Origin: Sphyrna mokarran
Taxonomy: Eukaryota
Reading direction: 5' to 3'
DNA: 64,000 nucleotides
Assembly: GCA_024679065.1 (NCBI GenBank)
Contig: JAGIQG010000019.1
Coordinates: 16,616,001-16,680,000 of the forward strand
Numbering within the stretch: the stretch's first letter is position 1; each line of letters begins with the position of its first letter. Of the stretch, positions 21,001 to 64,000 are shown piece by piece. The position numbers were made by a program.

Positions 21001-24000
21001 GCTTCCAAACAGAATTAGCAGAGAAAATGTAATAGCTGTCAAATCTTTCACATAACTGGGGCTACTGTCAGCTTAACAGTTGCTGACTGATAGCAATGTT
21101 CCACTTGCATAAGCAAGTCTCTGTGTACTTGTAATATGTATTGAATTTGGCACCAGACAATACCAGTCTAGGACATTGCAATTGCTAATGAAATAATCCT
21201 GTTAACTTATATCTTCATACCGTGAGAATGGTTGAAAACTTAAAGGAACTGGAGTCTACAAATAGCTTTTTCAACATGACATTTGCAGCATGTCTATTTA
21301 GTTTTGTGATATAACACTACTGCAATAGCATAGGAATTTAGCTTATTTCCAAGTAGTTTTAACCATTTTTTGTCTGTTTGTGAAGGTACCCCTATTACAA
21401 CTATACCAACAACACCGACTACTGTCTCCATACCAGGTGAGTGATGGCTTTTAGGATCATTATAACAGTCACTTTGTTTCAACAGCTTCCAGGTAGTGAA
21501 ATCCTGTGGGTGTTCATAGAATTTCTACGGTGCAGAAAGAGGCCATTTGGCCCATCAAATCTGCACCAATTATGTTCTTACCAAGCTCTATTTCCTTAGT
21601 TCCACATATTTATTCTGTTAGTTCCCCTGACATAGGACCAATTTAGCATGGCCGGTCAACCTAACCTGCATATCTTTGGCATATGGGAGGAAACCAGTGC
21701 ACCTGGACGAAATCACACAGACATGAGGAGAATGTGCAACCTCCACACAGATATGAGGCCTGAGGCTGGAATTGAACTTGGGCACCTGGTGCTGTGAGGC
21801 AGCAATGCTAAGCACCGTGTTGTCCTATGTTGAGGACATAACCTCCAGAGTGACTCAGTGAAATGCAGTTATTTGAATGAAATTAGTCCAAAGTGTATGA
21901 CAGATGTGTCATGGTCGAGATGCAAAAGAGCAAAACGTATATGCGTTCATATATGTTATATCTATATTTATCAGTTGGATTACTTTACAAAGTAAATTTT
22001 ATGTGCTTTATAAAATGGACACTTGCTGAGCTACAAAATATCTCCAGCTTATCACATGATGCCTTCAACAGTATCAAAGTAACAATGGCCCCACAGACGA
22101 TGGGGCCAACTTTGAAAGGCAATCTTTTGCAGGTCTTAATCTCCCACAATGGTGCTAACGGACTAAGCATCGATGGCTAGAACTGGTTTAAGAAAAGTAA
22201 TGTACCGCAACAAATTCTTTTAGACAAACTTGCTAAACAATATTACAAAGGTGGGTAAGGAAGCATTAACCAGTGAAACACTAACCACCCTATATTGGGT
22301 AGAGGTATGGATTCTCGGACATTGCTTGCAGCTGGGATTCTCTGGTCTGAATGGAGTGAGCGCCAAATTCTCCATTCTCGCTGGCAGTGGTAGCAGGGTG
22401 TGAATGGCTAGAGAATTCTGGCCAAAAAGTTTAGCAAGTGTCCATTTTATAAAGCACATAAAATTTACTTTGTAAAGTAATCCAACTGATAAATATAGAT
22501 ATAACATATATGAATGCATATACATTTTGCTCTTTTGCATCTCGACCATGACACATCTGTCATACACTTTGGACTAATTTCATTCAAATAACTGCATTTC
22601 ACTGAGTCACTCTGGAGGTTATGTCCTCAACATAGGACAACACGGTGGCACAGTGCTTAGCATTGCTGTCTCACAGCACCAGGGGCCCAGGTTCAATTCC
22701 AGCCTCAGGCCTCATATCTGTGTGGAGGTTGTACATAAAAAGTTTCCTTTTGAGATCCAAGATCCTGGGGTACTCAAGTCCCTACCCAGAACAGGTAGAA
22801 GAATCAGAACTAAGCAAGGATTGGAAACCTGTATTCAAAGGATACAGAACACGGCTGGAGGAGCTGGAGAGGAAGAGACTAATGAAATAGTTCCAAGGAA
22901 GGGAAAGAGAAGGAGAAAGAGAATTTCAACAGAGGAAAGTAGAAAGTGATTGGACTCACCAACAAAAGATGCTAGAGTTGAAAAAGATCAAAAGACAGAG
23001 AGGGAATTCCAAAATGAAATGAGGGAAATAGTTAACTTGTGGGGATGTGCCTTGGTGTAGTCACAAGCATTGCGTCCCAAGAAGAACAGGGTGAAAAAGC
23101 CAGGCAATTGCAGCAAAACTCTGCTCTGTGGCAGACGGTAAAAAGAGTTTGGAGGCCTGCCAAGGATGAAACAAGCTCTCAGGAATAAGGCGTTTCCAGA
23201 AAAGCTTTCTGGATTTATAAGGGCTGCAGTTCAGCCAGAAAACACAGAAGAAGCTGCGACCAAGCTGCAGAGATCTGCGGAAAGGCAGAAAGCGAGCACC
23301 CACAAGGATGGCTGGGCCTCCACAGACATCGGGCAAGTGTTACTCGAAGGTAGCAAGGTCAGAAGCTGGGCCAGTAAAATTAAACCAATCCAGAGAAGGC
23401 CCCTAGAATCCAAAGTAGATTCTCCCAAAAAAAAAGCCCACAGCTGCATAGGGACCACTGCGAGTGAGATTGGAGAATTTGGCACTCAGCCAAACCTCTG
23501 TTCACTGCAGTGAGACCAGACGATCCCAGCTACAAGCAATGTCCAAGAATCTTCTATCTCCAGCAAGGCAAGGAATCATGAAGGCACGCATGCTCGCACA
23601 ACCAATAGCCAGTCAATTTAAAGGGAAGAGAGCCCTACTCCTGTTTGATCAACAGGAAGTCTGACTGTCTGAAATCTTCTTTCCACTTTTAGAAGAAGAA
23701 TGGCTGGACCATCCGAAACACACTCTGCTTCAGTGAGAATTTACCTCAATGGCTGTTAGTCCATAAGGAGCCAACACCCCTAGGTTACACTTTAGCTTAA
23801 TTCGAAGCAATTTTTAAAAATGGCATCTGGGCTTCTGGCTAATATGCAAATGAGATCGAACCTTGGAGGAGGAGATATGCCTACTCTAATTAGCTTGGAT
23901 CATGTAGATCAAGCCCAAGATAGGAAGTGAGAGCCCCGTCCTGTCAGCTTGGATCGGGAATGTCTCAACTTGTTGAGACTCTGAATTGGACTTGGTTTAA

Positions 24001-63000: not shown

Positions 63001-64000
63001 AATAATTTAGATAACGTGCTTGGGGATTTGTCTGCTCGTTCTGATATCTCAAATTTATCTGTGAGACAGTGTTTCTCGGTGTGTTTCCACTTTGGTTATT
63101 CAGAGGCCGAGCACTCCCATGAATTGATGGGAATGTTTGGTATCATCAGGAATCCTTCAAGACAGCCCTGAAATGTTTCTTCTGTCCCACGGGTATTTCC
63201 TTCTCCCACTGCATTCTGGGCAATGCTGTTGCTTTGAGAATCTGGTTTCAGGAAATCAAATGTCATCTGCCCAGCCGAAGTGGTTACGTATAATTGTTGA
63301 CTCACTGCTGAATATGTTGTCTTGGGAGAGGATGCTGGCTGTTGGAAAGCATTTCTTGCAATAGATTAGGAGGACCTTGCAAAGACATGTGTGTTACAAT
63401 TCTTTGAGGTGTATGAAGTCCAATTTGACAAAGAAGAAAAGAGTGTGGTGCTGTGTGCTGTGCGATAAAGCAAAATCTTAGCGTCTTGTTGTAGAACAGG
63501 TCCGCAATCATCTTTTCAAATCCTCTTCCAAGCACATCTTAATCAACAGTGGCTCAGACAATTCCAGTCCGTCAATTAAGCCCTTTAGTTTGATCCAATT
63601 CCTTTGGGATGGAGTTATTTGTAAAGTTTAGTAGTCTCAATCTGCAATCAGTGACATTTCCTCATTCACAAAAACGGTGTTGTGACAAGCTCTCCCTTGG
63701 GAGGTTTCTCTATTGGAAAATCAGATTTTTAATGTTTCAACAGTTTCATCTGTAAGTTTGATCCTTTCATCCCATTTTGTGTCCTTTTGTGGCTGCTGAT
63801 TCTATTAAAATTTTCGGAAAAATTTTCACTCCTGTTTGTAAATGTACACTTCGTTCTTCATGCTGGTGGTCTCAGCCTGCAGACATTTGAATTCCAAAAT
63901 AATTTTTTCCAGCTGTTGTCAATGTTGCTGTCGTGATAGAGTGCTGATTTTGAAAGGTCTTTCTTTGTCTGCAGTACCAACGACAACAACAACAACACAG

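What the first reader, a model, noticed from the sequence alone, without database searches (positions are those of the whole stretch)
21386..64000. Mucin PTS domain built from over 40 symmetric phase-1 microexons: a splice-tunable glycodomain
Seen: every intact Thr/Pro-rich exon is 45-63 nt, a multiple of 3 and phase 1-1, so any subset can be skipped without changing frame. From ~31.9 kb the exons occur as A-B-C-D (21+20+20+15 = 76 aa, 228 nt) inside 2.8-4.6 kb tandem units, so the repeat unit is mostly intron. No Cys or CysD module occurs in them. Established: human MUC2, MUC5AC and MUC5B carry their PTS repeats mainly in large central exons, while multi-exon PTS regions are reported for MUC19, chicken Muc2 and Xenopus FIM-B.1 (cassette splicing), so the principle has precedent. 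Inference: this elasmobranch gene can vary mucin length both by unit copy number and by combinatorial exon skipping. Such microexons are easy for annotation pipelines to miss.
Basis: partly seen in the sequence, partly recalled or inferred. Interest (0 to 1): 0.85.

Follow-up and report, generated by a model that had tools for sequence, protein, structure and literature searches.

The report
Shark mucin glycodomain in small exons
The sugar-carrying middle part of a shark gel-forming mucin gene is written as a long tandem array of tiny, frame-neutral exons separated by large introns, a real but not unprecedented gene layout whose proposed use for splice-tuning of mucin length remains untested.

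Summary
On the + strand, 21386-64000 carries 46 Thr/Pro-rich exon-like elements. Of these, 37 are complete and intact: AG/GT-flanked, 45-63 nt, multiples of 3, phase 1-1. One is cut by the window end and 8 are degenerate. From ~31.9 kb they sit as A-B-C-D (63+60+60+45 nt = 76 aa) in nine 2.8-4.6 kb tandem units, 90-99% identical.

Upstream exons encode TIL, VWD and C8 domains of a gel-forming mucin D'D3. A 26-nt exon links them in frame to the first PTS exon. A Mustelus RefSeq mucin model reads the same exons in the same order, with one junction residue between segments.

Intact exons are better conserved than introns and show fewer nonsynonymous changes than neutral expectation; dead copies do not.

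So it is a real multi-exon PTS domain that grew by unit duplication and recombination. Splice tuning is permitted by the frame but untested, and near-consensus splice sites suggest constitutive inclusion.

Precedent exists: chicken Muc13 has one 20-aa repeat per exon, and the splicing idea dates from 2006. I rate it a new member of a known kind, of moderate interest.

The parts
2800..3045 (+). TIL-type exon of D' (HSP bounds, not splice-exact)
   Evidence: Pfam TIL, E=1.4e-5. 84% identical to P0001 residues 725-806.
3725..3874 (+). TIL end / E' exon (HSP bounds)
   Evidence: Pfam TIL. 94% identical to P0001 855-904.
5093..5230 (+). VWD3 first exon (HSP bounds)
   Evidence: Pfam VWD, E=1.9e-9. 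91% identical to P0001 906-951.
5709..5834 (+). VWD3 exon (HSP bounds)
   Evidence: 81% identical to P0001 950-991.
5966..6169 (+). VWD3 exon (HSP bounds)
   Evidence: 81% identical to P0001 987-1054.
9793..10041 (+). VWD3 end / C8 start exon (HSP bounds)
   Evidence: Pfam VWD. Matches the D3 assemblies of MUC5AC, MUC5B and MUC2 at 78-84 bits, against 51 bits for VWF D3. 90% identical to P0001.
10133..10291 (+). C8-3 exon (HSP bounds)
   Evidence: Pfam C8, E=2.1e-15. 98% identical to P0001 1130-1182.
11702..11827 (+). TIL3 exon (HSP bounds)
   Evidence: 95% identical to P0001 1184-1225.
12245..12387 (+). Last D3 (TIL3/E3) exon; ends ...GAC TG|gtaaag, so it leaves in phase 2
   Evidence: 91% identical to P0001 1225-1271. 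Sequence read.
14017..14042 (+). 26-nt microexon (C)YCQDGNVI(C); converts phase 2 to phase 1
   Evidence: tblastn match to P0001 'CQGGNV'. Flanked by ...tttacag| and |gtaagt.
21386..21436 (+). First PTS exon, 51 nt, TPITTIPTTPTTVSIP. Its first two bases GT complete a Cys codon with the T that ends the 26-nt exon.
   Evidence: 87.5% identical to P0001 1282-1297. The junction Cys matches P0001.
25272..25328 (+). PTS exon, 57 nt, intact
   Evidence: 94% identical to P0001 1299-1316. AG/GT flanks.
26265..26321 (+). PTS exon, 57 nt, intact; ends in A, so the next junction codon is AGA (Arg)
   Evidence: 89% identical to P0001 1318-1336. The predicted junction Arg matches P0001 residue 1337.
27536..27595 (+). 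PTS exon, 60 nt, intact
   Evidence: 83% identical to P0001 1338-1355.
27987..28036 (+). Pseudoexon: 50 nt (not divisible by 3), GC donor, Thr-poor (VTTKPVKLAAQPAPHQ)
   Evidence: Sequence read. By position and its EVTTKPV start it corresponds to P0001 1357-1376.
29231..29293 (+). PTS exon, 63 nt, intact; no clear counterpart in P0001
   Evidence: AG/GT flanks and 9 of 9 donor match. Only gapped 50-54% matches to P0001.
29555..29614 (+). Pseudoexon, 60 nt, donor GT changed to AT (TCAG|atgagt)
   Evidence: Sequence. Its peptide is 84% identical to P0001 1377-1395.
30259..30315 (+). PTS exon, 57 nt, intact
   Evidence: 78% identical to P0001 1418-1435.
31613..31672 (+). PTS exon, 60 nt, intact
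   Evidence: 95% identical to P0001 1437-1455.
32353..32415 (+). U1 exon A, 63 nt
32699..32758 (+). U1 exon B, 60 nt
34076..34135 (+). U1 exon C, 60 nt
34808..34852 (+). U1 exon D, 45 nt
36255..36317 (+). U2 exon A
36601..36660 (+). U2 exon B
38250..38309 (+). U2 exon C (last base C instead of G)
39707..39750 (+). U2 exon D pseudoexon: 44 nt, 1-nt deletion at the donor, several nonsynonymous changes
40892..40954 (+). U3 exon A
41238..41297 (+). U3 exon B
42890..42949 (+). U3 exon C
43614..43658 (+). U3 exon D
44802..44864 (+). U4 exon A
45148..45207 (+). U4 exon B
46810..46869 (+). U4 exon C
47536..47580 (+). U4 exon D
47754..47807 (+). U5 exon A, 54 nt (in-frame 9-nt deletion)
48091..48150 (+). 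U5 exon B
49744..49803 (+). U5 exon C
50473..50516 (+). U5 exon D pseudoexon (44 nt)
51636..51698 (+). U6 exon A
51970..52029 (+). U6 exon B pseudoexon (donor GT changed to AT)
52554..52613 (+). U6 exon C
53286..53330 (+). U6 exon D
54443..54505 (+). U7 exon A
54777..54836 (+). U7 exon B pseudoexon (donor GT changed to AT)
55361..55420 (+). U7 exon C
56093..56137 (+). U7 exon D
57268..57330 (+). U8 exon A
57604..57663 (+). U8 exon B (one Pro-to-Leu change)
59257..59316 (+). U8 exon C
59984..60027 (+). U8 exon D pseudoexon (44 nt)
61156..61218 (+). U9 exon A
61490..61549 (+). U9 exon B
62074..62133 (+). U9 exon C
62803..62846 (+). U9 exon D pseudoexon (44 nt)
63975..64000 (+). U10 exon A, cut by the window end; the array continues beyond the window

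Best explanation
This is the central O-glycosylated PTS domain of a shark gel-forming mucin of the MUC2/MUC5 group.

Layout. The domain is not one giant exon. It is an array of small exons of 45-63 nt, each holding one 15-21-aa Thr-rich repeat. All start and end in phase 1.

Origin (inferred). One or two ancestral exons with their flanking intron were duplicated repeatedly, which leaves the diverged exons at 21-32 kb. A 4-exon block, A-B-C-D, then became the unit of tandem amplification, giving at least 9 units of 2.8-4.6 kb.

Turnover. Unequal crossing-over and gene conversion between units change copy number and make mosaics. Intron insertions and deletions account for the different unit lengths.

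Role of phase symmetry. It is inherited from the founding exon. It makes gain, loss or death of an exon harmless to the reading frame, so 8 dead exons sit in the array without breaking the gene.

Splicing (inferred). The default expectation is constitutive inclusion of the intact exons and skipping of the dead ones.

Shown: the exon anatomy, the link to D3, orthology with an annotated mucin model, constraint on intact exons, and the mosaic unit. Inferred: expression, O-glycosylation, the order of duplications, and constitutive splicing.
For: - Exon anatomy: 37 of 37 intact exons have AG/GT flanks and lengths divisible by 3. Their inner residues are 45.7% Thr, 17.2% Pro and 7.8% Ser, with no Cys.
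- Strand specificity: 41 clusters on the + strand in phase 1 against 0 on the minus strand. Frame-blind choice of splice sites gives a multiple of 3 in 35 of 41 clusters.
- Same gene as D3: TIL, VWD and C8 exons lie upstream. They are closest to the D3 assemblies of MUC5AC, MUC5B and MUC2. Window 2800-12385 is colinear with P0001 residues 725-1271.
- In-frame link: the 26-nt exon at 14017-14042 bridges phase 2 to phase 1 and recreates the Cys seen in P0001.
- Orthologue model: the 26-nt exon and 7 of 8 pre-array exon peptides map in order onto P0001 1274-1455. The PTS exon peptides are 78-95% identical. Consecutive intact exons are separated by exactly one residue, and the predicted junction residues Glu and Arg match P0001.
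- Same 4-exon cycle in Mustelus: the P0001 tail repeats D-like, A-like, B-like and C-like segments.
- Conservation: exons are 94.9% identical and 30-nt flanks 95.2%, against 91.3% for intron. Only 7 of 500 random sets of intron blocks reach the exon value.
- Selection: unique variants in intact exons are 13 synonymous to 13 nonsynonymous, where neutrality predicts 70% nonsynonymous (p=0.028). Dead D copies show 0 to 9 (Fisher p=0.013). All 4 variants among intact D copies are synonymous.
- Array dynamics: U6 and U7 are 98.7% identical. U9 resembles U6/U7 at its 5' end (96.1% against 92.2% for U8) and U8 at its 3' end (96-98.9% against 89-92%).
- Unit length differences are intron events, including a repeat insertion in U2.
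- Old copies: B and C exons detect the TTTVK-type pre-array exons at 64-75% identity, with the alignments centred on the exons.
Against: - There are no transcript data for this species or locus, so splicing of every exon is inferred.
- P0001 is a computed RefSeq model. I could not see its supporting evidence or its genomic exon boundaries.
- The selection signal is modest. It rests on 26 and 9 variants, does not correct for transition bias, and the copies are related rather than independent.
- Exon 29231 has no clear counterpart in P0001.
- Collapse or expansion of near-identical units during assembly cannot be excluded.
- Orthology to a particular mammalian mucin is unresolved. NCBI names its shark relatives mucin-2-like, mucin-6-like and mucin-19-like.
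Confidence: 0.78

Rival explanations
1. One reading: the array is used as a splice-tunable glycodomain. Cells would vary mucin length by regulated or combinatorial skipping of the symmetric exons, in addition to allelic differences in copy number.
For: - Every ordered subset of the 37 intact PTS exons stays open. No exon ends in T, so junction codons are mostly GAA (Glu) or GTA (Val).
- A and D donors are weaker than B and C donors: gttagt and gtaatt score 7-8 of 9 against the consensus.
- Dead B and D exons show that transcripts lacking single exons must already be tolerated.
- The same idea was proposed for chicken Muc13 (PMC1552070, section 8 read). An in-frame 165-aa PTS splice variant was found in chicken MUC2 (PMC3549977, passage).
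Against: - No transcript evidence is available here.
- B and C sites are near-perfect consensus with long pyrimidine tracts, which is typical of constitutive exons.
- Phase symmetry is fully explained by exon duplication.
- The one orthologue model reads the exons consecutively.
Confidence: 0.17
2. The array, or much of it, is decaying or not expressed: a pseudogenised tail, or an assembly artefact made of near-identical units.
For: - 8 of 46 exon-like elements are already dead.
- Units are 90-99% identical, which invites assembly errors.
- Several homologue models are truncated.
Against: - 37 of 37 other exons keep AG/GT flanks, an open frame and Thr-rich coding.
- Intact exons show a synonymous excess while dead copies do not.
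- Exons and splice flanks are more conserved than introns.
- Units differ by many substitutions and indels, so they are not simple assembly duplicates.
Confidence: 0.04
3. The Thr-rich exons belong to a separate downstream gene and not to the D3-bearing mucin.
For: A 7.3-kb intron holding retroelement fragments separates the 26-nt exon from the first PTS exon.
Against: - The phase 2 to 1 bridge and the recreated Cys codon fit exactly.
- P0001 runs from D3 straight into the same PTS exons in the same order.
- No start-like or signal-peptide exon was noted in between (only ORFs were inspected).
Confidence: 0.01

Closest known systems
Chicken (and zebrafish) Muc13 multi-exon PTS domain (Lang, Hansson & Samuelsson 2006, PMC1552070; abstract passages and all of section 8 read)
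   Same: - The PTS domain is split into many exons.
- Each exon encodes one repeat of about 20 aa; at least 12 repeats are reported.
- The authors already proposed that PTS length could be set by splicing as well as by recombination, and that this may be an ancestral mucin design.
   Different: - Muc13 is a transmembrane SEA-domain mucin, not a VWD-type gel-forming mucin.
- It has one exon type, not a 4-exon A-B-C-D unit.
- In what I read there is nothing on intron phase, dead exons or unit mosaics.
Chicken MUC2 (Jiang et al. 2013, PMC3549977; passages and Table 2 in section 12 part 1 read)
   Same: - It is a gel-forming mucin whose PTS region spans many exons (32-45).
- Genomic sequence is repeated around those exons.
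- One in-frame PTS splice variant was found.
   Different: - Its PTS exons are about 200-870 nt, against 45-63 nt here.
- Its repeat is 69 aa.
- CysD modules are interspersed; none occurs in this window.
Xenopus tropicalis Otogl skin mucin (Dubaissi et al. 2018, PMC5789918; passages read)
   Same: Its central mucin domain is multi-exonic and lacks typical CysD domains. The authors cite Muc13 as the precedent.
   Different: It belongs to the otogelin-like family. Exon sizes and phases were not given in the passages I saw.
Human MUC2, MUC5AC, MUC5B and MUC6 central exons (PMC9712336, passages read)
   Same: They share the D'D3-then-PTS architecture. The D3 exon in the window is most similar to these proteins.
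   Different: Their mucin domain is a single exon of about 9-13 kb, and repeats vary as an intra-exonic VNTR. Here about 95% of each repeat unit is intron.
Shark RefSeq mucin models, above all 'mucin-6-like' of Mustelus asterias (P0001) and 'mucin-2-like' of Pristiophorus and Carcharodon (P0010, P0003)
   Same: P0001 is 90% identical over the D3 exon. It carries the same PTS exon peptides in the same order and the same 4-segment cycle.
   Different: - P0001 has a duplicated 6-exon block that is single here.
- P0003 and P0010 carry CysD modules between PTS runs.
- P0001 and P0010 end in '...PGE', which I read as truncation by run-on into an intron. P0003 does not end this way.
Arrays of small symmetric exons in other repetitive proteins: titin PEVK, collagen 54-bp exons, MUC16 multi-exon SEA repeats (recalled, not checked here)
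   Same: Repeats map one-to-one onto frame-neutral exons. The arrays grow by duplication, and in titin inclusion is variable.
   Different: The protein classes and exon phases differ. No homology is implied.

Membership tests
Gel-forming (VWD-type) mucin, MUC2/MUC5 group | N-terminal D assemblies (VWD-C8-TIL) directly before the mucin domain | tested here: met
   - Pfam finds TIL, VWD and C8 on + strand exons at 2.7-10.4 kb.
- The best solved matches are the D3 assemblies of MUC5AC, MUC5B and MUC2.
- The region is colinear with P0001 residues 725-1271.
- D1 and D2 lie outside the window.
Gel-forming (VWD-type) mucin, MUC2/MUC5 group | Long central domain rich in Pro, Thr and Ser | tested here: met
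   70.7% P+T+S over the 679 inner residues of 37 exons.
Gel-forming (VWD-type) mucin, MUC2/MUC5 group | CysD modules interspersed in the PTS domain (present in MUC2, MUC5AC and MUC5B; absent in MUC6 and MUC19 as I recall) | tested here: not met
   tblastn with a CysD from P0003 gave a best E of 1.3 anywhere in the window. The closest Carcharodon and Pristiophorus models do have CysD, so it may lie beyond the window.
Gel-forming (VWD-type) mucin, MUC2/MUC5 group | C-terminal D4, VWC and cystine-knot domains | not testable with these tools
   The array runs off the window end.
Gel-forming (VWD-type) mucin, MUC2/MUC5 group | Dense O-glycosylation and secretion as a polymer | not testable with these tools
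   This needs biochemistry. Shark skin mucus does contain mucin-5B-like and mucin-2-like proteins by mass spectrometry (PMC10707392, passages).
Multi-exon PTS domain (chicken Muc13 type) | Each PTS repeat is encoded by its own exon | tested here: met
   37 intact exons of 15-21 aa each with AG/GT flanks. The orthologue model separates consecutive intact exon segments by exactly one residue.
Multi-exon PTS domain (chicken Muc13 type) | Transcript support for the exon chain | tested here: inconclusive
   The only support is a computed RefSeq model from another shark. No cDNA or EST tool is available here.
Regulated cassette-exon array (splice-tunable domain) | Exons are symmetric, so skipping keeps the frame | tested here: met
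   All intact exons are phase 1-1 and none ends in T, so no junction stop is possible.
Regulated cassette-exon array (splice-tunable domain) | Observed variable inclusion of exons in transcripts | not testable with these tools
   No transcript data.

The most novel reading that the evidence does not exclude
Two linked ideas remain open.

First, donors and acceptors in near-identical units could pair promiscuously or under regulation. One allele would then give a family of mucin lengths, a built-in polydispersity.

Second, this small-exon array could be the ancestral layout of the gel-forming-mucin PTS domain, kept in slowly evolving sharks. The giant central exons of amniotes would then derive from it by intron loss.

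The turnover of dead exons seen here would be the visible trace of a birth-and-death process acting on exons rather than on genes.
Probability: 0.17. Interest if true: 0.65.

Novelty: new member of a known kind. Interest (0 to 1): 0.4.

Why it matters
- It gives a clean, fully sequenced example of a gel-forming mucin whose glycodomain is about 95% intron. Repeat number here changes by recombination between multi-kb units, not by slippage inside one exon.
- The 2006 proposal that PTS length can be set by splicing becomes directly testable in a VWD-type mucin. The expected junctions, and the junctions that would signal skipping, can all be listed.
- It has a practical side for annotation. Shark mucin models are often cut off at or soon after D3, or run into an intron, so mucin sizes and repertoires in elasmobranchs are probably underestimated.
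- The mix of live and dead exons is a small natural experiment showing selection on individual PTS repeats. Such repeats are usually thought to be constrained only in composition.

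Tried and rejected
- Tandem Repeats Finder (period up to 500) found nothing in the array. It found only a 39/79-nt repeat at 1560-1777. The units are too long, so I used blastn self-comparison.
- CysD search by tblastn: nothing.
- Rfam at gathering thresholds and ARAGORN on the whole window: 0 and 0. 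No intronic snoRNA, miRNA or tRNA-derived element was recognised.
PTS exons were compared exon by exon, and only with the 43 proteins already stored. How widespread the exact A-D exon types are therefore stays unchecked.
- Pfam on the 209-aa ORF of the U2 insertion and two other intronic ORFs: no family.
- Literature search with 'mucin / symmetric exons / phase 1' returned only clinical 'phase 1' papers.
- 'mucin, shark, gel-forming, exons' returned 2 papers, neither on exon structure. 'elasmobranch, gel-forming mucin, muc5, muc2' gave a shark skin proteomics paper but nothing on gene structure.
- I could not verify cassette splicing of FIM-B.1. PMC7177656 says only that FIM-C.1 is polymorphic through alternative splicing.
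- I did not verify a multi-exon PTS in MUC19 (listing only).
Those of PMC4948705 and PMC4200417 may hold gene models for ghost shark and zebrafish mucins.
No related genomic locus could be fetched.

Full report
WHAT IS THERE

The window has no N. A six-frame scan for stop-free 15-aa windows with at least 10 Thr/Pro/Ser found 39 blocks. Of these, 38 lie on the + strand, and none lies upstream of 21379.

Each block sits between a pyrimidine tract ending in AG and a GT donor. I set fixed criteria: AG..GT, 42-66 nt, T/P/S at least 0.6, and a pyrimidine tract of at least 0.6. Read in entry phase 1, the + strand then gives 93 nested candidates in 41 clusters. The other two + strand readings give 0 and 11 candidates. 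The minus strand gives 0 in all three readings.

I also chose the best acceptor and donor by a simple consensus score that ignores frame. The length was divisible by 3 in 35 of 41 clusters. The six misses were:
- one unrelated site at 1529;
- two exons (21386 and 30259) where my crude acceptor score preferred another AG;
- three degenerate exons.

FINAL TALLY

There are 46 exon-like elements.
- 37 are complete and intact, all with AG/GT flanks. Sizes are 45 nt (5), 51 (1), 54 (1), 57 (3), 60 (18) and 63 (9).
- 1 is an A exon cut by the window end at 63975.
- 8 are degenerate. 27987-28036 is 50 nt with a GC donor. 29555-29614 and the B exons of U6 and U7 have donor GT changed to AT. The D exons of U2, U5, U8 and U9 have a 1-nt deletion at the donor, which leaves 44 nt.

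The intact exons total 2148 nt, or 5.0% of 21386-64000. Their 679 inner residues are 45.7% Thr, 17.2% Pro, 7.8% Ser and 5.4% Lys, with no Cys.

THE ARRAY

A blastn of one unit against the window shows tandem homology from 31879 to the window end, covering exons and introns alike at 88-94% identity.

There are nine units, U1 to U9, plus the start of a tenth. Each carries exons A (63 nt), B (60), C (60) and D (45), which add up to 76 aa. A-to-A distances run from 2807 to 4637 nt.

The differences in unit length are intron events:
- a deletion of about 1.07 kb in the B-C intron of U6, U7 and U9;
- a deletion in the D-A intron of U4;
- a 754-bp insertion in U2, which is a copy of an interspersed repeat also present at 15123-15818 (80.6% identity, opposite strand).

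Pairwise unit identity is 90-94%, except U6/U7 at 98.7% and U8/U9 at 95.5%. U9 is a mosaic. Its 5' part is closest to U6/U7 (96.1%, against 92.2% for U8). Its 3' part is closest to U8 (96.0-98.9%, against 88.8-92.3% for U6/U7). I read this as recent unit duplication together with unequal crossing-over or gene conversion.

WHICH GENE

Upstream on the same strand, stop-to-stop ORFs carry Cys-rich exons. Pfam finds TIL (2734-3048 and 3722-3877), VWD (5018-5380 and 9775-10044) and C8 (10124-10390).

The 9775-10044 piece matches solved D3 assemblies. In D3-only constructs it scores about 84 bits for MUC5AC, 82 for MUC5B and 78 for MUC2, against 51 for VWF.

A database search with that single exon gave 43 hits among 50 candidates. 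The top ones are all elasmobranch mucin models:
- 'mucin-6-like' of Mustelus asterias (P0001), 90% identity;
- 'mucin-2-like' of Carcharodon, 86%;
- a Scyliorhinus torazame protein, 82%.
I did not try to name the species.

P0001 residues 725-1271 are colinear with window 2800-12385.

The last D3 exon ends ...GAC TG|gtaaag at 12387, in phase 2. A 26-nt exon at 14017-14042 (tttacag|...|gtaagt) supplies (C)YCQDGNVI and ends with a T. The first PTS exon at 21386 starts with GT. Together these make the Cys that P0001 has at the same place.

This ties the PTS exons to the D3 exons in one reading frame across a 7.3-kb intron. That intron holds Ty3/gypsy-like integrase and reverse-transcriptase fragments.

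CROSS-SPECIES CHECK, EXON BY EXON

I compared each exon peptide separately with P0001.

The 26-nt exon and 7 of 8 pre-array exon peptides map in order onto P0001 1274-1455. The PTS exon peptides are 78-95% identical.
- For the run of intact exons 21386, 25272, 26265 and 27536, the matched segments are 1282-1297, 1299-1316, 1318-1336 and 1338-1355. They are separated by exactly one residue, which is what phase 1-1 splicing with a split codon predicts.
- The next P0001 segment, 1357-1376, corresponds to the pseudoexon at 27987.
- The predicted junction residues Glu (G|AA) and Arg (A|GA) match P0001 residues 1317 and 1337.
- Exon 29231 has no clear counterpart.
- The tail of P0001 cycles through D-like, A-like, B-like and C-like segments.

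P0001 is a computed model, and I could not see its evidence. This is therefore support, not proof, of splicing.

ARE THE EXONS UNDER SELECTION?

Across the nine aligned units, identity is 94.9% in exons, 95.2% in the 30-nt flanks and 91.3% in the remaining intron. Only 7 of 500 random sets of intron blocks reach the exon value; the random mean is 91.8% with SD 1.6. The extra conservation covers about 50 nt upstream and 6 nt downstream of each exon.

For the substitution count I left out the 54-nt A copy of U5.
- Intact exons show 13 synonymous and 13 nonsynonymous unique variants. Neutrality predicts 70% nonsynonymous (binomial p = 0.028).
- The dead D copies show 0 synonymous and 9 nonsynonymous (Fisher p = 0.013).
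- All 4 variants among the five intact D copies are synonymous.

The numbers are small and the copies are related, but the direction is consistent. Intact exons are constrained as coding sequence, and dead ones are not.

Older history also points the same way. B and C exons detect the TTTVK-type pre-array exons at 64-75% identity, with alignments centred on the exons. A and D exons both detect the exon at 26265.

HOW IT MOST LIKELY WORKS

Shown:
- a gel-forming mucin whose PTS domain is an array of small phase 1-1 exons;
- growth of that array by duplication and recombination of multi-kb units;
- dead exons carried in the array without breaking the frame.

Inferred:
- The exons are spliced consecutively and the dead ones are skipped.
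- The product is a Thr-rich, O-glycosylated rod with one Lys per exon and mostly Glu or Val at junctions.

Because no PTS exon ends in T, no junction between PTS exons can create a stop. The 26-nt exon does end in T. Joining it to the common AA-start exons would give TAA, so the first PTS exon is not freely skippable. That last point is my inference from the bases.

THE SPLICE-TUNING IDEA

The frame permits it, but nothing here tests it.
- B and C donors match the 9-nt consensus 9 of 9 in most copies, and acceptors have long pyrimidine tracts. This is what constitutive exons look like.
- A and D donors are weaker, at 7-8 of 9.
- Phase symmetry needs no adaptive explanation. Any internal exon that is duplicated in tandem must be symmetric to be tolerated.

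WHAT IS KNOWN

- Lang et al. 2006 (PMC1552070; passages and all of section 8 read) described the chicken Muc13 PTS domain as at least 12 exons of 20 aa each. They noted the same in zebrafish Muc13, and suggested that splicing could regulate PTS length and that this may be an ancestral design.
- Chicken MUC2 has a multi-exon PTS (exons 32-45) with repeated flanking DNA and one in-frame 165-aa splice variant. Its exons are about 200-870 nt (PMC3549977; passages and Table 2).
- Xenopus Otogl has a multi-exonic mucin domain (PMC5789918; passages).
- Human MUC2, MUC5AC, MUC5B and MUC6 have one central exon each (PMC9712336; passages).
- Lang et al. 2016 list ghost-shark mucins but, in the passages I saw, say nothing on PTS exon structure (PMC4948705).
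- Shark skin mucus contains mucin-5B-like and mucin-2-like proteins (PMC10707392; passages).
- I found no paper describing this layout in an elasmobranch gel-forming mucin. The held library is incomplete and supplements were closed.

ANNOTATION

Among the 43 stored homologue models:
- 3 end in '...PGE', which is the translation of CCAG|gtgag. I read this as a run-on into the intron.
- 2 end at the D3 boundary with W (TG|gt).
- Several others end in His/Gln/Asn/Tyr-rich tails. I take these, by eye only, to be Thr-codon exons read out of frame.

VERDICT

The mucin-PTS reading is supported. Splice tunability is untested and not favoured by the splice-site strengths.

I rate it a new member of a known kind. 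It differs from Muc13 in three ways: it is a gel-forming mucin, the repeat unit holds four exons, and exons visibly die and are replaced. Interest is moderate.

Noticed in passing
window 14896-17640 (+): Fragments of a Ty3/gypsy-like retroelement lie inside the 7.3-kb intron between the 26-nt exon and the first PTS exon. Pfam finds Integrase_H2C2 (14896-15132), a weak integrase C-terminal match (16288-16779) and a weak RVT_1 match (17216-17419). The frames are broken.
   Followed up: partly
window 38482-39235 (+), 15123-15818 (-): The extra length of unit U2 is a 754-bp insertion. It is 80.6% identical, on the opposite strand, to a repeat in the large upstream intron. It carries a 209-aa open frame (38494-39123) with no Pfam match. 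From memory the frame resembles the C-terminal tail of a LINE ORF2. A similar frame lies at 30883-31218 (-).
   Followed up: partly
window 21600-21900, 22560-22736, 18430-18625, 11029-11208, 25776-25892: A short interspersed repeat of about 180-200 nt occurs in 5 copies at 72-93% identity, in both orientations, inside introns. From memory it resembles a tRNA-derived shark SINE, but ARAGORN and Rfam found nothing.
   Followed up: partly
window 1560-1777: A 39/79-nt tandem repeat with 5.5 copies and 83-87% matches, upstream of the D' exons. Its nature is unknown.
   Followed up: no
window 3132-3398 (+): P0001 residues 809-859 align here only weakly (49% over 89 aa, with length differences). The linker exon between the two TIL pieces is either much diverged or differently spliced in this species.
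   Followed up: no
P0001 residues 1338-1574 versus window 27536-31672: The Mustelus model carries a duplicated block of six PTS exons (about 119 aa) that is present once in the window. This is a between-species difference in exon-block copy number outside the main array.
   Followed up: partly
window 26599-27048 (-) and 26618-27127 (+): A GC-richer stretch (about 44% GC at 24-28 kb) has long open frames on both strands rich in Gly, Ser, Pro and Leu. It lies in the intron between exons 26265 and 27536 and is probably a low-complexity repeat.
   Followed up: no
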